A stretch of 64,000 nucleotides of DNA from Escherichia coli (GTDB lineage Bacteria > Pseudomonadota > Gammaproteobacteria > Enterobacterales > Enterobacteriaceae). This document shows, in pieces, positions 21,724 through 46,504 of the stretch (position 1 is its first letter; every line of letters starts with the position of its first letter). Made by a program: the position numbers and the translations under genes. The stretch is from assembly GCF_003334785.1 (NCBI RefSeq), contig NZ_QOWV01000001.1. One strand, 5' to 3'. The notes beneath the pieces were generated by a model. It did not search any database. It was not told where the DNA came from and worked only from the letters and a program-made list of their open reading frames with translations.

Positions 21724-22686
<963 letters not shown>

Positions 22687-22692
22687 TTCTTT

Positions 22693-22769
<77 letters not shown>

Positions 22770-22814
22770 ACGCCCGGCGTGCAGCATAAAAATACAACAA
22801 ACACATAACATAAA

Positions 22815-23910
<1,096 letters not shown>

Positions 23911-23912
<2 letters not shown>

Positions 23913-23940
23913 AAAAAAGCCCGTCCAGTGGCGGACGGGC
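23911..23940. terminator. Hairpin terminator at hcxB 3' end (A-run, GC stem)
   Basis: aaaaaaaa then gcccgtcc-agtggc-ggacgggc; orientation of the A/T run suits termination of minus-strand transcripts. Confidence 0.5.
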
Positions 23941-24017
23941 AAACAAGGGTAACATAGGATCAATGAGGGTTAGAGCATATGCGTCTGTCGGCAAACAGAC
24001 AGGGAAATACTTGTGCT

Positions 24018-24137
24018 GGACGTAGCGTAAACGCCTGATCCGTCCAACGGTTCGGATTTTGTAGGCCTGATAAGACGCGGTAGCGTCGCATCAGGCATCT
24101 GTTGCCGGATGCGGCGTAAACGCCTTATCCGTCCTAC
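24018..24137. repeat. REP/BIME cluster between hcxB and ybiJ
   Basis: Three REP-like units including gtaggcctgataagacgcggtagcgtcgcatcaggc and gccggatgcggcgtaaacgccttatccgtcctac. Confidence 0.8.
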
Positions 24138-24140
24138 GAA

Positions 24141-24401
24141 TTACTTATAAATTACCGCAGTACCGCTTAATTTATTGTTGTTGGTGGCGGAAGTGATGCT
24201 GTATCCACTGGCACCGGCTGCCGCGGCTTTCTCAGCCAGTTTCGCTTCCAGGGCATCGAGGGTGGATGCGCCATCGGCAGAAACCACGCCGATTTTATTC
24301 ATGTTCTGTGCCTGGGATGCCGTTACCGGTTCCGCCGCGAACACGCCAAATGACAGAGTTGAAAGAGCCATAGCAGCAACAACAGTATTGATAGTTTTCA
24401 T
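24141..24401 (-). CDS. ybiJ: YbiJ, DUF1471 (YhcN-family) secreted small protein (86 aa)
   Basis: ORF 24141..24401 minus; signal peptide; C-terminus GTAVIYK; paralog of mcbA in this window. Confidence 0.9.
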   Translation of the reverse strand: MKTINTVVAAMALSTLSFGVFAAEPVTASQAQNMNKIGVVSADGASTLDALEAKLAEKAAAAGASGYSITSATNNNKLSGTAVIYK

Positions 24402-24665
24402 AATTAATCTCTCGCAGGTGATTTTTGTATAAGTGACGTTGTTTCGTCGATGTGATGAGTATCACGTTTTTTTACGAGAGATAAAATCGAAGAGAATTGA
24501 CCGCCTTGTTCAAATAAATTGATTGATATCTAACCTACTGATAAACCATTTATTTGTTGTACTTATGAACTTGTTTTATACCGCGTGGCAGTCACAGCAG
24601 CGTTAAAGGCACGGAATGACACGCAAAATACAAATTATACTCGCTATGCATCTCGCCAGTTGTAG

Positions 24666-24932
24666 TTAACGTAACTGGCTGTCTTTCGAACCTCTGCGAT
24701 TATATCCTGTATAAGCTGGTTTTTGTAAATCTTTCTCCTGCTGACAATGAATACATAAGCGCACGCCAGGAATGGCTTCCCGACGGGCCTGCGGGATGGG
24801 GGCACCGCACTCTTCACATTCATCCAGGCTTTCGCCGCGCGGAATTTCACCCCGAGCGCGGGCAATCGCATCTTCAATTGTACTGTTGATCTGTTCGTTG
24901 ACGGCGTCATCGTTAGCCCAACCGGATGCCAT
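24666..24932 (-). CDS. ybiI: YbiI, DksA/TraR-family C4-type zinc-finger protein (88 aa)
   Basis: ORF 24666..24932 minus; CEEC...CIHC zinc-finger motif. Confidence 0.88.
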   Translation of the reverse strand: MASGWANDDAVNEQINSTIEDAIARARGEIPRGESLDECEECGAPIPQARREAIPGVRLCIHCQQEKDLQKPAYTGYNRRGSKDSQLR

Positions 24933-25005
24933 ATCGACCTCCCCATATCAATACTTGTACAGTTAAGTGTAGCTAATCCAGGGACGAACTCGGGCAGTTC
25001 AAGCA

Positions 25006-25683
25006 TCAGATCTCCGACCATTCCCGCAGCAGATTATGATAAAGATTAAGCAGCGACAGGATCTCTTCACTTTCGCCGTAGCGGCTTTTCAGCGACTGAA
25101 TATTGTTGTCCAGTTCAAACAGCATGGCGCGCTTTTTATCATCGCGGATCATCGACTGGATCCACATAAATGATGCCACTCGTACGCCGCGGGTTACGGG
25201 TGTCACGCAATGCAGGCTGCTGGAGGGATACAACACGAGATCGCCTGCCGGGAGTTTTACCCGATGTTGTCCGAAGGTGTCATTAACGACCAGTTCGCCG
25301 CCGTCGTAGCTTTGTGGATCGCTTAAAAACAGCGTGGCAGAAAGGTCAGTACGCATCCAGCCGTTTTGTGGATGGCTGCGTACTGCGCCATCCACATGGA
25401 AACCATAGGTTTCATTGTTCTGATAGCGATTAAACAGCGGCGTGGAAAGGGTACGCGGCAAGGCCGCGGCAAAGAATAAAGCATGTTGGTTAACCGCGTT
25501 CAGCACCTCATTTTGCAGGGCGGCGTATAACGTGCTGCGGGTGTCGACCTGTTGATTGTTCTTAACTTGCGCACCTTGTGCGCCGGTGGTGACGCGTCCA
25601 TCCACCCATTCGGCTTGTTCCAGTTGTTCGCGAAAACGAGCGACGTCCTGTGGCGATAACACGCCGGGAATGTGGTACATCAT
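25006..25683 (-). CDS. ybiX: YbiX, PKHD-type Fe(II)/2-oxoglutarate-dependent hydroxylase (225 aa)
   Basis: ORF 25006..25719 minus; start at ATG 25683 (MMYHIPGVL); HVDG iron-binding motif; 41 nt after fiu stop. Confidence 0.9.
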
Positions 25684-25724
25684 ACAATTTCTCCAAAAAG
25701 TGGGGCCTGCGCCCCACATCTGAA

Positions 25725-28007
25725 TCAGAAATGCATATTGGCTGTGAGCAAGAAGGTTCTTGGCTCGCCCGGGTGATAACGGTAGCCGCTCTTGTTGATT
25801 GAGGCGACGTAATCGGTATCAAACAGGTTGTAAACGTTTAGCTGGAAGTCGAGATTGCGATTAACTCGATACCCCAGTTTGGCATCGGCGACCCAGTAAC
25901 CTTCGGTAAACGCTGGCGTTCCCACCGCGCCGTCTGAACCTTTATGCATACTGCCGATATAGCGTGCGCCCGCGCCAACAGAGATATCGTCGGTTGCCTG
26001 ATATTGGCTCCATAAGGTGAAGGCGTGCTCCGGGGTATACGGCAGCGATGAGGAACCATCCTGGGCAACATCTTTGCCGTTTTTGATGGTTGCTTTTTGC
26101 TGGGTATAGCCGCCAATCACCTGCCACGCGGGAGTGATATTCCCGGCCACGGATATCTCATAGCCTTCGACGCGTTTCTTACCGTATTGCGAGTAAGTTC
26201 CGTCATCATTTTGCTCAACTTCATTTTCGATATCAGTGCGGAACAGCGCGGCGGTGAGCAACAGACGTTTATCCAGAACCTGCCATTTGGTGCCAATCTC
26301 GCTGGTGTTGGCTTTTTGCGGTTTAAAATCGGTGCGGTTGGCACTGTTACCGCTGCCAGACTGCGCAAGGGCGAAGTTGTTGCCGCCCGGAGGCTGCTGG
26401 GAAACGGCATAGTTAATATAGACATTGCCGTTTTCCGTCAGGTGATACAGCGCCCCGGCTTTCCAGTTCATCAGATTGCCCGACTTGGCGGTGTCGACGG
26501 TGGTGACCGGAGAACCTTTTGCCACACCAGTTGGGCAGGTGATGGCACCGCGTCCGCTGCCGCCGCAGGCGGTGGCACTGTCATATTCAGTATGATAATT
26601 ATCCAGACGGATCCCGCCGTTCAGCTCAAAATCACGGGTGATTTGCAGCGTATCAAAGGCGTAAATTGCGAAGGTATCCGTCTGACCATTGGCGTTTGCG
26701 CCGTTGCGCGTCAGGCCGCCGGGATGAATGCTGCTGTCAGGATGATAAATATTTACCGCGGGTAACGTCACCGGATTAACGCCGTAGTTAGTCTGCGTTT
26801 CACGGGTAAATTCCACGCCGGTACTGACATCATGACCGATAGAACCGGTATAGAACGTCGAGGTCAGGTTGGTCTGGTTGGTGAGAATTTTATTACTCAC
26901 ATCTTTGGTATTCGCCGTGCGTGACCAGGTCCAGCTATTCACATCGCTGGTGGGCTGAGTAATATTCGACGCCCCGCCCATAATCGCCGTCATCAGGTAA
27001 TCCTGCTTTACGCGCGACCAACGGGTAGTATTGCGAATGGTGGTGTTATCGTTGATGTCGTGCTCAAAACGCATGGTGGCGGTGTCGGTGGTCGAATCGT
27101 CGTAATCGGAATCCGTGCCGTAAAAGTTATGAGTATCAACTTTTCCGGAATGATTCAGGGCCGCCGTTCCCGCAGATGGGGCAGAATAGCCCGGCAAACC
27201 GATGGTCGGAATGCCGCCGTCTGGCGTGTTGTGCTGGGTGACATGCAGATAATTAAGATACAAACGATTCGCTGTACCAAGGCCAAAAGCGACAGAAGGG
27301 GCGACGCCGTAACGCTCATTTTTGACTTTGTCGCGTCCGGCATCGTGCGTTTTTTCGCCCATTACATTCAGGCGCACCGCGGTGGTATCACCAATGACCT
27401 GATTGACGTCCAGCGTGCCGCGGCGGAACCAGGCGCTGCCAATACTGGCGGAGGCGTCAATGCCGGAATCATTGCGCGGCTGCTTGCTGATCATATTGAT
27501 CGAGCCTGTCGGTGCGCTGCGCCCGTAGTCGGTGCCGGACGGCCCTTTAATCACTTCGACCTGCTCGGTATTGAAGGTGTCGCGCGAGACGCTGCCGATA
27601 TCGCGAATGCCATCAATATAAATACTGTTAGAGGTATCGGCACCACGCATATAAATGGCGTCGCCAGTGGTGGAGTTACCGTTCTCACCCGCAAAAAACG
27701 CACCCACGCCGGGGACGTTTTTGAGCGCGTCGGTAAGGTTGGTTGCGCCCTGATCTTTAATCACTTGTTCAGAAATTACCGTCATCGTGCGGGTAGTATC
27801 CGCTACCGGACGCGAGAATTTCGGATCGGCAGATTGTTGTGGCGCATAAAGCGAAGGCGTTGATGCTTCGACAACCAGCGTGTCATCCGCGTTAGTTTGC
27901 CCTTCGGCGGCGAGTGCCTGAGCCACAGGCGTGATGCCAATACAAAGACCGGCAAAGAACGTGAGCGAATGAAATTGTCTGGCAGGGAAATTGCGATTGT
28001 TTTCCAT
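25725..28007 (-). CDS. fiu: Fiu, TonB-dependent catecholate-siderophore outer-membrane receptor (760 aa)
   Basis: ORF 25725..28007 minus; signal peptide; C-terminal aromatic residue (ANMHF). Confidence 0.95.
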
Positions 28008-28100
28008 TTTGCAGGTGACTTTTTCTTATATGTTGAAATTTTCACTGCCACGAGAAAGCCTCTCTGCGGATGCGATGCCACTGTTAATCCCGTGATAGTG

Positions 28101-28128
28101 ATCGTGAAAGTGATAATAATTTTGATAA
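28101..28128. promoter_or_regulatory. Fur box(es) in fiu promoter
   Basis: tgataataattttgataagcattatcac matches the GATAATGATAATCATTATC consensus, about 100 nt upstream of fiu ATG. Confidence 0.65.
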
Positions 28129-28271
28129 GCATTATCACTTGGAGCGATTTTCTATCACCCATTGCGCGAAAAAGAAATACATTTATTTACATTGAGTTCA
28201 TATTTGATGTTTTTTGATTACAAAACAGACGAAAACTGCATCCAGAGGCGAATGCAGTTACGTTGGTGGGG

Positions 28272-28532
28272 TTATTTGTAGATGGTTGCAGTACCGAACA
28301 TCTGGTCATTTCCGCCTGCGGAATTAATGACATAACCTTTCGCGCCTTGTTCGCGCGCTTTTTCTGCCAGTTTATCCTCCAGATCGCTTAGGTTTGATGC
28401 GCCAGTTGCCGAAACGGTACCGGCGGGCCGTAGCTGACCGCTGTCCAGGTTACTCATCGGTTGCGCGGCATAAGCCGTGAGAGAGATTCCGCTCAGGACG
28501 GTGGCAATCAGTAGTGTGAGGCACTTTTTCAT
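28272..28532 (-). CDS. mcbA: McbA (YbiM), DUF1471 secreted small protein linked to colanic acid/biofilm control (86 aa)
   Basis: ORF 28272..28676 minus; start at internal ATG 28532 (MKKCLTLLIA); signal peptide; C-terminus GTATIYK. Confidence 0.88.
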   Translation of the reverse strand: MKKCLTLLIATVLSGISLTAYAAQPMSNLDSGQLRPAGTVSATGASNLSDLEDKLAEKAREQGAKGYVINSAGGNDQMFGTATIYK

Positions 28533-28807
28533 AATGACATCCTCATAAATACAACGGGTAGTGCCTGATAAGTGTAGGTCGCCTGCGCGATGCAAATGAC
28601 GCAAAAAATTGACAGAGATGTGCTTATTTTTTGAACGATATATTTTTACAAAATAAGACAAATCAATGACATGCATAATGCTGATTTTTATGATGAATTG
28701 CCATAAACCATAGCCATGTTAAGGTTTTGGGGAATGATAAACGCAGCCAGATATTTACCCTGTCGCGTTATGCGGGTATCTTACGCCGCTGCTTAAAGGA
28801 GAATGCT

Positions 28808-29734
28808 ATGTCCGCCCAGAAACCGGGGTTGCATCCGCGCAACCGTCATCACAGCCGCTACGATCTCGCCACGCTTTGTCAGGTCAATCCTGAACTCAGG
28901 CAATTCCTCACGCTTACACCCGCCGGGGAGCAAAGCGTAGACTTTGCCAATCCGCTGGCGGTGAAGGCGCTCAATAAGGCGTTGCTGGCCCATTTTTACG
29001 CCGTAGCGAACTGGGATATCCCCGACGGTTTTCTCTGCCCACCAGTACCGGGCCGGGCGGATTATATTCATCACCTTGCCGATTTACTGGCAGAAGCAAG
29101 CGGAACAATTCCAGCGAATGCCAGCATTCTGGATATCGGCGTTGGTGCGAACTGTATTTATCCGCTGATTGGCGTACATGAATATGGCTGGCGTTTTACC
29201 GGTAGTGAAACCAGCAGCCAGGCGTTAAGCAGTGCGCAGGCGATTATCAGTTCTAATCCGGGGCTTAACCGCGCCATTCGTCTGCGTCGGCAAAAAGAGA
29301 GTGGGGCGATTTTTAACGGCATCATCCATAAAAACGAGCAATACGACGCGACCTTGTGTAACCCGCCATTCCACGATTCCGCCGCTGCGGCACGGGCAGG
29401 TAGTGAGCGTAAACGCCGTAACCTGGGGCTGAACAAAGACGATGCACTGAACTTTGGCGGCCAGCAACAGGAGTTGTGGTGTGAAGGCGGTGAAGTCACC
29501 TTTATCAAAAAGATGATTGAAGAGAGCAAAGGCTTCGCGAAGCAGGTGATGTGGTTTACATCACTGGTATCTCGTGGTGAAAACTTACCGCCGTTGTATC
29601 GTGCCCTGACGGACGTGGGCGCGGTGAAGGTGGTTAAAAAAGAGATGGCCCAGGGGCAAAAGCAGAGTCGCTTTATTGCCTGGACCTTTATGAACGACGA
29701 GCAGCGCCGCCGTTTTGTCAATCGCCAGCGTTAA
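28808..29734 (+). CDS. rlmF: RlmF, 23S rRNA m6A1618 methyltransferase (308 aa)
   Basis: ORF 28727..29734; start at ATG 28808 ([10 protein letters not shown]); NPPF methyltransferase motif. Confidence 0.92.
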
Positions 29735-31956
29735 AGCGTTGGTTCCCCCGGCGGTAACGGTTCAGCCGGGGTCGCGCCCGGAGCAGGCAGCACCTGATAA
29801 GTCTGCACTGGCGCGCGAACGCCCGCCAGGTCGAAATGTTTTTTCACCTGGCTGTCGAGGGCAAAGCGTACCGTCCACTGTTTGAGTGGCAGCGTGGTGA
29901 ACGAAACACGCAGTGTAAACGCGGTATTGCTTAAGCCGACAATCCCGGCAAAATTCGGTTCACCAATAATCAGCCCGCGAATTTCTTCGTTTTCCATTAA
30001 TTCCGCTACCGCATCTTTCAGTGCCTGATTGGCTTTATCAGCATCTTCATGGCGATCAACATCATAATTTGCCACCACCGAACCAATGCCGCGGACAAAG
30101 TTAGCAAAGGTGGTTATCGAAGACCACGGAATGATGTGATACGCCCCGGTATCCTGTCGTACGCCCACGGAGCGAATCGACATCCGTTCCACTGTGCCGG
30201 TCAACGGCCCGATAGTCACCAAATCTCCAGTGTTCATGCCGTTTTCAAACTGAATAAATACCCCGGTGATAATATCTTTCACCAGCGTTTGCGAACCAAA
30301 CGAGATAGCCAGACCTAATGCCCCGGCACCTGCCAGCAATGGCGCGATATTGACGCCGATTTCCGACAACACAATCATGATGGTGATGGTACTGATAATC
30401 ACCGCCAGCGCGTTACGAAACAGCGTAAGCAGGGTACGCGTGCGGGCGCTGGGTAGCGGGCGGCCATGAATATCCGAAGCCAGCCGGTTTTCGATCAAAC
30501 TGGCGAGCACCGTCCAGCCAACCGCCGAGAAGAAAAGAATGAGTGCGATACGGATCAGGATATCTACGGTTTTCTGCCCCGCGCCGTTTTGCAGCCAGTT
30601 CCAGAAATCGAACAATCCCCATGCGCTCAACAGCAACATTACCGCCACGCAGACTGTCAGAATACGCGCCGTTTTCAGCGCCGCCGACAGCCAGCCATTC
30701 AACCGTTTTTGCAGCTCCGGATAGTTACGCTGAGTATGTGGCGAGAGAGTGATGGTTTTCGCCAGCCAGCGGGAAAACATACCGGAAACAAACGCTGCGA
30801 TACCAATAATCGCCAGGCTGCGCACCGTTGCACCCATCATAAATTTCAGGCTGTTGCCCGGATCGAACAACGAAAAGAAAAACAGCACGATAAAATAGGC
30901 GCTTGCCAGCCAGTGCCACACCAGCGCAAAGGCGCGGATAAACAGGCTGAAAAAGGCCAGCGAATGCTCCGCGAAGTTGAGCAAATGCTGGGTAATCTCT
31001 TTTTTATTACGAAAGATCAGGTACAACGCCCAGACGGTCATGCACAGCATAATGATGACGTTCGCCAGCGCACCTATCTGTACATTCACCTGATTAGAGA
31101 TAATCGGCACGGCCACAATCAGGCCATAACCTATCAAACTGCTTAACCAGCTCAGGCGACGACTCCAGTAACGGGCGCTCTCGTCCTGAATCGTGAACGG
31201 GCGCAGCTCCGCCACGTTTGGGCAAAAAATCAGGCGTAGTACGGCTTTGAAAAATTCAATGAGGGCAAAGGCGTTGAGAAACAAACTTTGTTGGAAAGCG
31301 ATGGTGCGACTGCCTGCATTCAGGTTGTCGCTTAATACCTGGCCGACAAATAATGTCAGGGCCAGTAACAGCAGGTCGATAATAAACGCCCCGATAATCA
31401 TCGCCGGAAGCTGCAACCAGTTGCTGCGCTCACGATTTTTTTGCCGCGCCCACTGACCCATTTTGCGATACAGCGGCAGTGCGCACAGGCGAATCAGCCA
31501 GTAAAAACCAAACACTAATACCGCTAACATTGAAAAATGGGTCAGCGCATTGCTGAAGGTTTGTGGATTAAACGGCTTATGCGGGGAGCCGGTGATATTG
31601 CGATAAAGTTGCCCGAAGCGGGCGGAAAGGGCTTCACCATAATGGCGGCTGACTTCGGTGACCTTTTGCAGCACGGTTTGCTCTTCGACCAGCGTCGGCG
31701 GCACTATTTTTGGTACCGGTTCAGCAGGGGGCGTAGCGGCAACGGTGCGCAACTGGTCGATCAACTCTTTACGCGAGGTGTCATTATCCAGCACATCCGC
31801 CAGTGCGCCATAGGCCGCTTTTTTTTGTTCGATATCCGGTTCCGGGGCCGGTTCAGTCGTTGAGTCCGTTGCCGTTGTGGTTGTAACGCCGGGTATGGAT
31901 ACCGCGTGGGCAGGTGCGCCCAGCAGGCAGAAGAGGATGAACAGGATCCACCGCAT
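29731..31956 (-). CDS. ybiO: YbiO, MscS-family mechanosensitive channel (741 aa)
   Basis: ORF 29731..32091 minus; start at ATG 31956 (MRWILFILF, signal peptide); multi-TM plus MscS-like C-terminal domain. Confidence 0.9.
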
Positions 31957-45688: not shown

Positions 45689-46504
45689 TCAGCTGTTAAA
45701 AGGGGATGTGTTATCCAGCACCGCCTGAATCACATTCAGCGCGCCTTCATGATTATTATCATCGGTAGCGTAACGGGCGATTTGTTTAATGTTTTCCGCA
45801 GCATTGCCCATCGCAAAGGAATAACGCGCCATTTTCAGCATCTCCGCATCGTTACCGCTGTCGCCAATCGCTACCACATTTTGCGGTGACAGATCCCAGC
45901 GTTTCAGTAACCGCGAAATACCGTTTGCTTTATGTAGACCGGGAATAATCAGGTCGATAAAGCCAAAACCACTGGTAACGGGTTTCATAATGCCATCGAG
46001 CGCTACGTGCAGTTTGTCGATCACTAACGGGATTTGTTCATCCGGCAGGTTGAGCGAAAACTTGAACAGTACGTCGTCAATCTCCTGATAATCTTTTACA
46101 GGTTTCAGGCGATGGTAGTGTTTTGCCATCAGTGCGACAAATGCTTCGGGGGCATTTTCGCTGACATATGCACTTTGCAGACCGCAGGCGACAAAATTGA
46201 GTTGCTTATCTTTTAGCAACTCGCCAATAACAATCCGCGATTCATGTCGGGTCAGTTCGCCGTGGAACAACTGCTTGCCATGTTCGTAAACCAGTGCGCC
46301 GTTTTCCGCGACAAAAGAGATCTCATCCTTTAGCTCAGGAAAGAATGAAATAAGCTGGTAATACTGATTACCGCTGGCAACAACGAACTTAATGCCGCGC
46401 TTTTTCAGTTCCTGATATTGCGCCATAAAACGTGGTTGGTTGTACGTTTTGGCGTCGTTAAGAAAAGTACCGTCCATGTCTGTGACGATAACTTTTACGC
46501 TCAT
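45689..46504 (-). CDS. ybiV: YbiV, HAD-superfamily (Cof-type) sugar phosphatase (271 aa)
   Basis: ORF 45689..46504 minus; HAD motif I DMDGTF. Confidence 0.93.

What the first reader, a model, noticed from the sequence alone, without database searches (positions are those of the whole stretch)
24141..28532. Paralogous DUF1471 secreted proteins (ybiJ and mcbA) bracket the Fur-regulated fiu-ybiX unit
Seen in sequence: YbiJ and McbA are both 86 aa with signal peptides and clearly related mature parts, including the shared LAEKA motif and C-termini GTAVIYK and GTATIYK. They lie on the same strand on either side of ybiI-ybiX-fiu. Inference: either a local duplication left the iron-uptake genes between the copies, or fiu-ybiX inserted between pre-existing paralogs. 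Either way, envelope-stress and biofilm-associated small proteins are physically linked to an iron-uptake locus.
Basis: partly seen in the sequence, partly recalled or inferred. Interest (0 to 1): 0.4.

Follow-up and report, generated by a model that had tools for sequence, protein, structure and literature searches.

The report
Two DUF1471 genes flanking fiu
Two small, related periplasmic stress proteins of E. coli (YbiJ and McbA) really do sit on either side of the iron-regulated fiu-ybiX genes, but this is an already annotated neighbourhood of separately controlled genes assembled by history, not a functional unit.

Summary
The window is K-12-like E. coli (5 mismatches in 20 kb against MG1655). 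ybiJ (24141-24401) and mcbA (28272-28532) are 86-aa PF07338/DUF1471 proteins, 47% identical without gaps, on the minus strand around ybiI-ybiX-fiu. All five genes and the paralogy are already annotated and published.

YbiJ and McbA are no closer to each other than to the unlinked paralog BhsA. This is seen in pairwise bits, HMM cross-scores and an unresolved neighbour-joining tree. Their flanking DNA is unrelated.

In 80 species anchored on rlmF, the backbone is ybiB-ybiJ-ybiI-[ybiX-fiu]-[mcbA]-rlmF. ybiX-fiu behaves as a separable cassette:
- It carries its own Fur box (29 of 29 fiu+ loci; essentially none of 51 fiu- loci).
- It co-diverges with the flanks (r = 0.90-0.95).
- It was lost repeatedly, with a scar in E. 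albertii.

ybiI belongs to the backbone, not to the cassette. Atlantibacter and Cedecea have ybiJ and mcbA directly adjacent.

The best reading is ancient neighbouring paralogs with a Fur-controlled cassette placed between them, and no shared regulation. A side find: the 3'UTR sRNAs of ybiJ (ZbiJ) and bhsA (BhsB) share a conserved CCCUCA-containing motif.

The parts
23911..24007 (-). ZbiJ (= asYbiE), an Hfq-associated sRNA from the ybiJ 3'UTR. It ends in the bidirectional terminator hairpin 23919-23940, shared with convergent hcxB.
   Evidence: K-12 feature b4814 maps here and the sequence is identical. Terminator found. The fold has z = -5.25 with the CCCUCA motif unpaired. The region is conserved in 65 of 80 species. 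Literature: PMC8175672, PMC8545128.
23979..24038 (+). ybiE, an annotated 19-aa small ORF antisense to ZbiJ.
   Evidence: K-12 b4769; translates to MRLSANRQGNTCAGRSVNA.
24064..24134 (-). REP/BIME element between the ybiJ stop codon and ZbiJ. It is present in the Escherichia loci printed (L007, E. albertii L011) and absent from the non-Escherichia loci printed, where the ZbiJ core follows within roughly 25-65 nt of the stop codon.
   Evidence: Rfam naRNA4 (RF02564), 78.4 bits against a gathering score of 59.5. Comparison of ybiJ 3' regions across genera.
24141..24401 (-). ybiJ, an 86-aa secreted DUF1471 protein, reported as induced specifically by acid.
   Evidence: PMC10746267; bioRxiv 10.1101/2025.02.11.637708.
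24666..24932 (-). ybiI, an 88-aa DksA/TraR-type C4 zinc-finger protein. It is a backbone gene that in E. coli lies downstream of ybiX in the Fur-controlled transcript.
   Evidence: NCBIfam NF008243, 160.5 bits. Next to ybiJ in 40 species without fiu. Operon and iModulon membership from PMC12004943 and PMC10164565.
25006..25683 (-). ybiX, an Fe(II)/2-oxoglutarate (PKHD-type) hydroxylase; part of the cassette.
   Evidence: NCBIfam NF003972, 519.8 bits.
25700..25717 (-). GC-rich hairpin followed by a T-run in the 41-nt fiu-ybiX spacer. It may be an intra-operon attenuator. In some strains this spacer is the site of an IS421 insertion.
25725..28007 (-). fiu, the TonB-dependent catecholate siderophore receptor; part of the cassette.
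   Evidence: NCBIfam NF007349, 1507.6 bits.
28106..28158 (-). fiu promoter region. It holds a cluster of overlapping Fur-box matches in 6-nt phase (28106-28142, 13-15 of 19 positions) and a sigma-70-like site (28158-28131).
   Evidence: The same cluster lies upstream of fiu in 29 of 29 fiu+ species.
28221..28259 (-). mcbA terminator: an 8-bp hairpin AACTGCAT...ATGCAGTT followed by a T-rich tail. It insulates mcbA from the fiu promoter.
   Evidence: Read from the sequence. The hairpin is kept, with changed stem sequences, in many of the mcbA orthologs printed, from Escherichia, Citrobacter, Enterobacter, Leclercia and Trabulsiella. The scanner missed it because the loop is 10 nt.
28272..28532 (-). 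mcbA (ybiM), an 86-aa secreted DUF1471 protein, reported to be repressed by McbR/YncC.
   Evidence: The McbR link comes from Zhang et al. 2008, cited through PMC4092069 and PMC13343897.

Best explanation
This is an ordinary, already annotated stretch of the E. coli chromosome holding three transcription units that work independently:
1. ybiJ, with its 3'UTR sRNA ZbiJ.
2. The Fur-repressed fiu-ybiX operon, whose transcript runs on into ybiI.
3. mcbA, with its own promoter and terminator.

ybiJ and mcbA are old members of the YbiJ/McbA/BhsA branch of the DUF1471 family. They were already neighbours between ybiB and rlmF, probably through an ancient local duplication, which is the family's usual way of expanding. 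The two-gene module of a TonB-dependent receptor plus a 2-oxoglutarate oxygenase (fiu-ybiX) came to lie between ybiI and mcbA once, early in the Enterobacteriaceae, bringing its own Fur-box promoter. It has since been inherited vertically and deleted many times.

One side effect is that the backbone gene ybiI came under Fur control in fiu-carrying species through read-through. The flanking position of the two DUF1471 genes is a historical by-product and does not couple envelope-stress proteins to iron uptake.

Shown here: gene identities, similarity values, the synteny states, Fur-box distribution, co-divergence and the E. albertii scar. Inferred: the order of events (paralogs first, cassette second), the local duplication itself, and the absence of functional coupling.
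For: Identity and paralogy.

Cassette behaviour in 80 rlmF-anchored species. J, I, X, F and M stand for ybiJ, ybiI, ybiX, fiu and mcbA; a dash marks absence.
- JIXFM 22, JI--- 20, JI--M 19, J---M 5, and ybiX-fiu without mcbA 5.
- ybiX and fiu are always gained or lost together and always sit at the same place in the same orientation.

The Fur box belongs to the cassette. A phased 14-17/19 cluster lies upstream of fiu in 29 of 29 fiu+ loci. Only two stray single hits appear in 51 fiu- loci, and none lies upstream of ybiJ, ybiI or mcbA.

Vertical descent: pairwise Fiu distances correlate with the flanking RlmF and YbiB distances at r = 0.90 and 0.95. This is as tight as the flanks correlate with each other (0.92), and no pair is anomalously similar.

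Losses:
- E. albertii keeps the ybiX stop codon and about 17 nt of its 3' end next to ybiI.
- C. werkmanii lacks the cassette inside an otherwise fiu+ clade.
- fiu+ taxa are never monophyletic (0/200 bootstraps).

Paralogs first:
- In a tree rooted on Pantoea and Glaciecola, the earliest-branching group (Siccibacter, Atlantibacter, Cedecea) lacks the cassette.
- Atlantibacter and Cedecea have ybiJ and mcbA about 400 bp apart, with no trace of ybiI, ybiX or fiu.

The module is independent of DUF1471. The receptor plus oxygenase pair occurs in Caulobacter, Pseudomonas and Acinetobacter (PMC12004943), whereas DUF1471 is confined to Enterobacterales (PMC4092069).

Separate regulation:
- The Fur-1 iModulon lists fiu, ybiX and ybiI only.
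- ybiJ is reported as specifically acid-induced.
- mcbA is reported as McbR-repressed.
- A terminator separates mcbA from the fiu promoter.

Family members cluster more than chance allows in K-12 (P = 0.0036), and tandem DUF1471 pairs are reported in Salmonella.
Against: - The order of events depends on weak rooting. The basal split has 87/200 bootstraps on one 309-aa protein, and no Yersiniaceae, Hafniaceae or other Erwiniaceae loci were recovered.
- The adjacent ybiJ-mcbA state could be derived, by deletion of ybiI-ybiX-fiu, rather than ancestral. No scar would survive at that divergence.
- A local origin of the ybiJ/mcbA pair is not demonstrated by sequence. The pair is unresolved relative to BhsA, and ybiJ shares 3'UTR motifs with bhsA but not with mcbA.
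- mcbA presence is mildly associated with cassette presence (odds ratio 3.9, P = 0.015, not corrected for phylogeny).
- No expression data were analysed here. Independence of regulation rests on sequence features and on published lists.
Confidence: 0.7

Rival explanations
1. A segmental duplication produced the arrangement. An ancestral block ybiJ-ybiI-ybiX-fiu (or a single DUF1471 gene next to fiu) was duplicated in tandem and the redundant copies were lost. This left one DUF1471 copy on each side of a single fiu set, so fiu was there first and mcbA is a local copy of ybiJ.
For: - Same strand, identical length and a gap-free 47% alignment.
- The DUF1471 family clusters non-randomly in K-12.
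- The point-estimate neighbour-joining tree joins YbiJ and McbA.
Against: - That clade has only 31/200 bootstrap support, equal to McbA+BhsA.
- Both proteins score higher to the BhsA profile than to each other's profile.
- There is no similarity outside the coding sequences.
- The ybiJ 3'UTR is related to that of bhsA, not mcbA.
- Early-branching genera have ybiJ and mcbA adjacent with no cassette.
Confidence: 0.15
2. The linkage is functional. Selection keeps periplasmic DUF1471 proteins next to the catecholate receptor because they act together, for example in envelope or biofilm responses tied to iron limitation.
For: - Raw co-occurrence of mcbA with ybiX-fiu: odds ratio 3.9, P = 0.015.
- In Klebsiella and Lelliottia the unlinked paralog bhsA also lies near a TonB-dependent receptor, and in Buttiauxella near a siderophore-interacting-protein gene.
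Against: - The association is driven by 11 Citrobacter and 4 Escherichia species and was not corrected for phylogeny.
- 28 species keep mcbA without fiu, 5 keep fiu without mcbA, and 40 keep ybiJ-ybiI without fiu.
- No Fur box lies upstream of ybiJ or mcbA in any species.
- The published Fur-1 iModulon list omits both genes.
- ybiJ is reported as acid-specific.
Confidence: 0.07
3. The ybiB-rlmF interval is a recombination hot spot, and fiu-ybiX has entered it repeatedly by horizontal transfer (homologous recombination through the conserved flanks). This would replace a single ancient acquisition.
For: - The phyletic pattern is very patchy.
- The same interval also gains and loses hcxB, mcbA and a flavin-reductase-like gene.
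Against: - Fiu distances track the flank distances (r = 0.90-0.95). The lowest Fiu/flank distance ratio is 0.55 against a median of 0.75, so no pair looks recently exchanged.
- Junction, orientation and Fur box are identical everywhere.
- A deletion scar is visible in E. albertii.
Confidence: 0.08

Closest known systems
YhcN / DUF1471 (PF07338, BhsA/McbA) family of Enterobacterales, including known linked pairs (yjfN-bsmA in E. coli; yhcN with a ycfR-like gene in Salmonella)
   Same: YbiJ and McbA are canonical members: about 86 aa, a Sec signal and a C-terminal PF07338 domain. Physical clustering of paralogs is a family trait (PMC4092069). The YbiJ-McbA paralogy is stated in print.
   Different: Here the two paralogs are 3.9 kb apart with unrelated genes between them, not directly tandem. 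They are no closer to each other than to unlinked BhsA.
TonB-dependent receptor plus Fe(II)/2-oxoglutarate oxygenase modules (Fiu-YbiX; PiuA-PiuC of Pseudomonas and Acinetobacter; CciT-CciO of Caulobacter)
   Same: The two genes are adjacent and co-oriented under Fur control. The receptor is a Fiu equivalog and the oxygenase a YbiX equivalog. A Fur box lies upstream. Conservation of the pair is described in PMC12004943.
   Different: In E. coli the transcript also covers ybiI. The synteny here shows ybiI to be a resident neighbour of ybiJ rather than a part of the module.
3'UTR-derived Hfq sRNAs and sibling sRNA pairs (for example CpxQ; OmrA/OmrB), recalled from general knowledge
   Same: ZbiJ and BhsB are both made from the 3' ends of DUF1471 mRNAs (PMC8175672). 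They share a conserved motif that both predicted folds leave unpaired.
   Different: The two sRNAs come from unlinked paralogous protein genes rather than from a tandem sRNA duplication. The similarity is limited to short motifs and the terminators differ. Shared targets have not been shown.

Membership tests
DUF1471 / YhcN family (PF07338) | Match to the PF07338 YdgH/BhsA/McbA-like domain | tested here: met
   YbiJ residues 34-86, E = 1.2e-17; McbA residues 34-86, E = 3e-19.
DUF1471 / YhcN family (PF07338) | Small (about 90 aa) single-domain protein with an N-terminal Sec signal peptide | tested here: met
   Both are 86 aa. The n-, h- and c-regions with VFA|AE and AYA|AQ are seen by inspecting the sequences. 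No signal-peptide predictor was available.
DUF1471 / YhcN family (PF07338) | Assignment to the named subfamilies YbiJ and McbA | tested here: met
   NF007611 (YbiJ) 173.1 bits and NF040473 (McbA) 174.5 bits, both with a cutoff of 110. The proteins are identical to K-12 b0802 and b0806.
DUF1471 / YhcN family (PF07338) | Mixed alpha+beta DUF1471 fold (similar to RcsF) | not tested
   Only sequence matches to solved DUF1471 chains 2noc_A and 2ma4_A were obtained (E = 9e-5 and 4e-4). The fold similarity of YbiJ to RcsF is reported in bioRxiv 10.1101/2025.02.11.637708.
Recent local (tandem or segmental) duplicates | Each is the other's closest paralog in the genome | tested here: not met
   YbiJ-BhsA 73.6 bits against YbiJ-McbA 72.0; McbA-BhsA 69.7. 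HMM cross-scores favour BhsA for both. Clade support is 31/200 against 31/200 against 10/200.
Recent local (tandem or segmental) duplicates | Similarity extends into the flanking non-coding DNA | tested here: not met
   The only match is 67 nt at 73% inside the coding sequences; nothing in 500-nt flanks. mcbA 3'UTRs show no significant match to bhsA-type 3'UTRs, and the exact ybiJ motif is absent from all 52 of them.
Recent local (tandem or segmental) duplicates | Directly adjacent copies in at least some genomes | tested here: met
   In Atlantibacter (L070, L073, L074, L076) and Cedecea (L072), ybiJ and mcbA are about 400 bp apart on the same strand.
Fur-regulated receptor-oxygenase module (Fiu-YbiX / PiuA-PiuC type) | TonB-dependent receptor and PKHD/2-oxoglutarate oxygenase adjacent and co-oriented | tested here: met
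   NF007349 1507.6 bits and NF003972 519.8 bits; 41-nt spacer. The two genes are gained and lost together in 80 species.
Fur-regulated receptor-oxygenase module (Fiu-YbiX / PiuA-PiuC type) | Fur operator at the promoter | tested here: met
   Phased Fur-box matches at 28106-28142 overlap a sigma-70-like site and are conserved in 29 of 29 fiu+ species. Binding itself was not tested here; Fur dependence is published.
Single regulatory unit linking ybiJ and mcbA to fiu | Shared operator or co-transcription | tested here: not met
   No Fur box lies upstream of ybiJ or mcbA in any species. There is a terminator hairpin after mcbA and a 264-nt spacer before ybiJ. The Fur-1 iModulon list lacks both genes. 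No transcript data were analysed here.

The most novel reading that the evidence does not exclude
The DUF1471 genes of the YbiJ/BhsA branch may have duplicated together with a regulatory RNA embedded in their 3'UTR. On this reading ZbiJ (from ybiJ, a published repressor of rpoS translation) and BhsB (from bhsA) are sibling sRNAs sharing an exposed CCCUCA-type seed, and so possibly sharing targets. mcbA, the physically linked paralog, would have lost or never had this module. Separately, the cassette insertion would have brought the backbone gene ybiI into the Fur regulon only in fiu-carrying species.
Probability: 0.45. Interest if true: 0.35.

Novelty: already known. Interest (0 to 1): 0.15.

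Why it matters
For the finding as written, very little. The genes, their paralogy, the Fur control of fiu-ybiX-ybiI and the absence of McbA from Salmonella are all published. The adjacency does not point to a new mechanism.

The comparative analysis adds three modest points:
- The ybiB-rlmF interval is a well-behaved example of a conserved backbone with optional cassettes: hcxB, ybiX-fiu, mcbA and a flavin-reductase-like gene.
- ybiI's Fur dependence in E. coli looks like operon capture rather than an intrinsic property. This predicts that ybiI is not iron-regulated in Salmonella or E. albertii.
- The 3'UTR sRNAs of two unlinked DUF1471 paralogs appear related. If confirmed, this would link ybiJ and bhsA, both among the top acid-induced genes in PMC10746267, through a common post-transcriptional output.

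Tried and rejected
- **Flanking-DNA similarity between ybiJ and mcbA** (blastn, word size 7): nothing beyond a 67-nt match inside the coding sequences.
- **Resolving the YbiJ/McbA/BhsA branching**: a neighbour-joining tree on 64 mature-protein columns with 200 bootstraps left it unresolved. No maximum-likelihood tool was available.
- **Remnants of ybiI, ybiX, fiu or hcxB** in the short ybiJ-mcbA spacers of Atlantibacter and Cedecea, and in Salmonella, Klebsiella and Kosakonia spacers: none found (tblastn, E up to 10).
- **Remnants of the cassette in Citrobacter species that lack it**: homology stops just upstream of ybiI, with no recognisable scar.
- **Rfam scan of 22000-30000**: only a REP-derived naRNA4 hit and a chance-level anti-hemB hit.
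- **Co-occurrence of mcbA with the cassette**: nominally significant, but dominated by two genera, so not used as evidence.
- **Literature search for 'ZbiJ' with word-start matching**: returned only unrelated papers and was repeated as whole-word.
- **NCBIfam on the 204-aa optional gene**: no hit; Pfam identified it.
- **Covariance model of ZbiJ to test BhsB**: not built, because the shared part is only short motifs and the terminators differ. A BLAST test against shuffles was used instead.
- **Loci from Yersiniaceae, Hafniaceae or Erwiniaceae other than one Pantoea**: not obtained, because the single genome-collection scan returned only close RlmF relatives.

Full report
**What is there**

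The window is an E. coli chromosome almost identical to K-12 MG1655: 5 mismatches and no gaps over 20 kb. The finding's interval corresponds to b0802-b0806. All genes below are on the minus strand:
- ybiJ 24141-24401
- ybiI 24666-24932
- ybiX 25006-25683
- fiu 25725-28007
- mcbA 28272-28532

The flanks are hcxB (ybiC) upstream and the divergent rlmF downstream. The stretch is present in 5418 of 5426 complete E. coli genomes.

YbiJ and McbA are each 86 aa and align end to end without gaps at 47% identity, E = 1e-22. LAEKA and the GTAVIYK / GTATIYK C-termini are as described. Both match PF07338 and their own NCBIfam models above cutoff. They are the only DUF1471 ORFs in the 64-kb window.

The proximity also exceeds chance. 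Random placement of the ten K-12 DUF1471 genes gives two or more pairs within 5 kb in only 0.36% of trials; two pairs are observed.

**Are the two each other's closest relatives?**

I fetched all ten K-12 paralogs: yahO, rclB, ybiJ, mcbA, bhsA, ydgH, yhcN, yjfN, bsmA and yjfY. All were compared pairwise.
- YbiJ scores 73.6 bits to BhsA, 72.0 to McbA and 64.7 to YhcN.
- McbA scores 72.0 to YbiJ and 69.7 to BhsA.
- Against curated profiles, YbiJ scores 116 bits to the BhsA model but 80.6 to the McbA model. McbA scores 101.5 to the BhsA model but 74.3 to the YbiJ model.

I then built a neighbour-joining tree of 94 non-redundant sequences: YbiJ and McbA orthologs from 80 species plus BhsA and YhcN orthologs from the protein search. 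McbA (151/200), BhsA (187/200) and YhcN (189/200) are recovered as groups with moderate to good support; YbiJ is a clade in the point-estimate tree but in only 49 of 200 bootstraps. The order among the groups is unresolved: YbiJ+McbA 31/200 bootstraps, McbA+BhsA 31/200, YbiJ+BhsA 10/200. Mean identities are 44.9%, 42.6% and 46.3% respectively.

DNA similarity between the two loci is confined to 67 nt inside the coding sequences.

This does not exclude an old local duplication, because BhsA evolves slowly and McbA fast (within-group distances 0.154 and 0.433). It does mean the sequences give no positive support for one.

**Synteny**

I anchored on the housekeeping neighbour RlmF, so that loci would be recovered whether or not fiu is present. 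This gave 80 species-representative loci with 10-kb flanks, which I mapped by tblastn.

The backbone is ybiB-[hcxB]-ybiJ-ybiI-[ybiX-fiu]-[mcbA]-rlmF-ybiO. State counts follow, with J, I, X, F and M standing for ybiJ, ybiI, ybiX, fiu and mcbA, and a dash marking absence:

| State | Species | Examples |
|---|---|---|
| JIXFM | 22 | Escherichia, C. freundii complex, Leclercia, Silvania, Pseudocitrobacter vendiensis, two 'Enterobacter' |
| JI--M | 19 | E. albertii, C. amalonaticus, C. sedlakii, C. werkmanii, Enterobacter, Trabulsiella, Yokenella, Pseudescherichia |
| JI--- | 20 | Salmonella, Kosakonia, Phytobacter, Superficieibacter, Siccibacter |
| J---M | 5 | Atlantibacter, Cedecea |
| ybiX-fiu without mcbA | 5 | Klebsiella oxytoca complex, two Kluyvera |

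Three conclusions follow:
- ybiX and fiu always come and go together, at one position and in one orientation.
- ybiI stays with ybiJ in 40 species that lack the cassette. It is missing from four Kluyvera loci that have the cassette. It is therefore a backbone gene, not part of the iron module.
- Linkage of the DUF1471 genes to fiu is conserved in some genera but is far from general. Salmonella lacks both fiu and mcbA here, in agreement with PMC4092069.

**The cassette carries its own control**

In the window, overlapping matches to the 19-bp Fur consensus in 6-nt phase (13-15 of 19) lie at 28106-28142. They overlap a sigma-70-like site about 100-135 nt upstream of the fiu start.
- Across species the same cluster lies upstream of fiu in 29 of 29 fiu+ loci.
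- The ybiJ-to-rlmF interval of the 51 fiu- loci has only two isolated 14/19 hits, both in unrelated inserted DNA.
- No locus has a Fur box upstream of ybiJ, ybiI or mcbA.

mcbA ends in a hairpin (28234-28259) with a T-rich tail. The hairpin is conserved, with changed stem sequences, in other genera. So mcbA transcription is insulated from the fiu promoter.

Published data agree:
- fiu, ybiX and ybiI form an operon and belong to the Fur-1 iModulon, whose list contains neither ybiJ nor mcbA (PMC12004943, PMC10164565, PMC4145685).
- ybiJ is reported as one of the few strictly acid-specific genes (PMC10746267).
- mcbA is known as the target of McbR/YncC (Zhang et al. 2008).

**History of the cassette**

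Pairwise Fiu distances among 27 fiu+ loci correlate with RlmF and YbiB distances at r = 0.90 and 0.95. The two flanks correlate with each other at 0.92. No pair is unusually similar in Fiu. This indicates vertical descent from a common ancestor of these genera, not repeated import.

Absences are then mostly losses:
- E. albertii retains the ybiX stop codon and about 17 nt of its 3' end beside ybiI. It resumes homology 43 nt downstream of mcbA.
- C. werkmanii lacks the cassette within an otherwise fiu+ clade.
- fiu+ taxa are never monophyletic (0/200).

In an RlmF tree rooted with Pantoea and Glaciecola, the first-branching group (Siccibacter, Atlantibacter, Cedecea) lacks the cassette, although support for that split is weak (87/200). 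Atlantibacter and Cedecea have ybiJ and mcbA about 400 bp apart with no trace of ybiI, ybiX or fiu.

The receptor plus oxygenase pair exists well outside the range of DUF1471, in Caulobacter, Pseudomonas and Acinetobacter (PMC12004943). DUF1471 itself is confined to Enterobacterales.

Taken together, this favours 'neighbouring paralogs first, cassette placed between them once, then many deletions'. I hold the order of events at moderate confidence only, because of the weak rooting and the lack of outgroup families.

**Consequence for ybiI**

ybiI has no Fur box of its own in any fiu-less species. In E. coli it lies 73 nt downstream of ybiX, and the scan predicts no terminator between them. Its published Fur dependence in E. 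coli is therefore best explained by read-through from the cassette promoter (inference). The testable prediction is that ybiI is not iron-regulated in Salmonella or E. albertii.

**Rivals**

- **Segmental duplication around a pre-existing fiu.** Not excluded, but it has no positive support: no flank similarity, an unresolved tree, and adjacent copies in early-branching genera.
- **Functional coupling of DUF1471 proteins to iron uptake.** Supported only by a raw co-occurrence (odds ratio 3.9, P = 0.015) that is dominated by Citrobacter and Escherichia. The independent losses and separate regulation speak against it.
- **Repeated horizontal insertion into a hot spot.** Contradicted by the co-divergence.

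**A by-product that bears on the paralog question**

K-12 annotates the sRNA ZbiJ in the ybiJ 3'UTR (window 23911-24007) and BhsB in the bhsA 3'UTR (PMC8175672). ZbiJ is the same RNA as asYbiE, reported to repress rpoS translation (PMC8545128).
- The two RNAs share an exact 11-mer, TAACCCTCATT, at the same relative position (E = 0.004).
- CCCTCA occurs within 60 nt of the ybiJ stop codon in 54 of 74 species, against 0.9% of random windows.
- TTAACCCTCAT is kept just after the bhsA stop codon in E. coli, Salmonella and Lelliottia, while the rest of that 3'UTR differs.
- The best matches between bhsA 3'UTRs and the ybiJ 3'UTR set are exact runs of 16 and 18 nt (32.2 and 36.2 bits). The maximum in 40 shuffles was 24.3 bits. 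bhsA against mcbA 3'UTRs gives nothing above background.
- In both predicted folds the CCCUCA core is unpaired.
- The paper that named both sRNAs does not use the words paralog or homolog.

So ybiJ shares a non-coding feature with the unlinked bhsA and not with the linked mcbA. Ten of 52 mcbA 3'UTRs do carry CCCTCA, which is a weak hint of an older common motif.

**Comparison with what is known, and verdict**

Everything in the finding as written is already annotated or published:
- The family and its paralogous subfamilies (PMC4092069).
- The statement that YbiJ is a paralog of McbA (bioRxiv 10.1101/2025.02.11.637708).
- The Fur-controlled fiu-ybiX-ybiI operon.
- The lack of McbA in Salmonella.

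The arrangement is real and non-random. It is best read as historical residue in a variable chromosomal interval, not as a system. Interest is low. The most novel things not excluded by the evidence are the sibling relationship of ZbiJ and BhsB, and the capture of ybiI into the Fur regulon.

Noticed in passing
window 23911-24007 (-); L003 5304-5403 (+); bhsA loci L089-L096: The 3'UTR sRNAs ZbiJ (from ybiJ) and BhsB (from the unlinked paralog bhsA) share a conserved TAACCCTCATT / CCCTCA motif that both predicted folds leave unpaired. Cross-species matches between bhsA and ybiJ 3'UTRs (16-18 nt exact) exceed all shuffles. mcbA 3'UTRs lack the motif in most species. The paper that named both sRNAs does not appear to note the relationship.
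   Followed up: partly
window 24666-24932 (ybiI), compared with L026, L029 and L011: ybiI is a backbone gene that stays with ybiJ in 40 fiu-less species and has no Fur box of its own. Its Fur dependence in E. coli looks like operon capture by the inserted fiu-ybiX cassette.
   Followed up: partly
L088 2429-3541 (E. coli O157:H16 98-3133); corresponds to window 25684-25724: Some E. coli strains carry an IS421 (IS4-like) insertion in the 41-nt fiu-ybiX spacer. This should uncouple ybiX-ybiI from the fiu promoter. Its frequency among strains was not counted.
   Followed up: no
window 25700-25717 (-): A 7-bp GC-rich hairpin followed by TTTTT lies between the fiu stop codon and the ybiX ribosome-binding site. 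It may be an intra-operon attenuator that lowers ybiX-ybiI expression relative to fiu.
   Followed up: no
window 24010-24134: REP/BIME elements (Rfam naRNA4, 78 bits) lie between the ybiJ stop codon and ZbiJ in the Escherichia loci inspected. In the other genera inspected the sRNA core follows the stop codon within roughly 25-65 nt, so the REPs pushed it about 130 nt downstream.
   Followed up: partly
L038 9294-9908 (-); also L027, L049, L072: A further optional gene of the interval: a 204-208-aa protein with a Flavin_Reduct domain (PF01613, E = 1e-19) sits immediately upstream of rlmF in Klebsiella, Kluyvera, Kosakonia and Cedecea. The ybiB-rlmF interval thus has at least four independently variable inserts.
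   Followed up: partly
L031 about 4087-4340 and L083 about 8958-9210 (-): The McbA-position gene in Kluyvera georgiana and Kluyvera genomosp. 3 is a diverged DUF1471 protein (53% identity; 66.5 bits to the McbA model, below its cutoff). Its signal peptide ends in a lipobox-like ...TSTTGC, so it may be a lipoprotein variant.
   Followed up: no
window 28533-28676 (-): The mechanical ORF containing mcbA extends 48 codons upstream (134 aa), and many database entries use that longer form (for example clusters of 134 aa). The 86-aa start has a GAGGA ribosome-binding site and places the signal peptide at the N-terminus, so the long form is probably a mis-annotation.
   Followed up: partly
L091, L092, L095, L096 (positions 1-420) and L093, L094 (positions 1-566): In Klebsiella and Lelliottia the comR-bhsA pair lies next to a 729-732-aa TonB-dependent receptor (the size of FhuE). 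In Buttiauxella it lies next to a siderophore-interacting-protein gene. This is a second case of a DUF1471 gene near iron-uptake genes, probably coincidental.
   Followed up: no
window 58561-58591, 59758-59785, 45745-45769: Other clusters of 13-15/19 matches to the Fur-box consensus occur elsewhere in the window. They were not examined and may only reflect AT-rich sequence.
   Followed up: no
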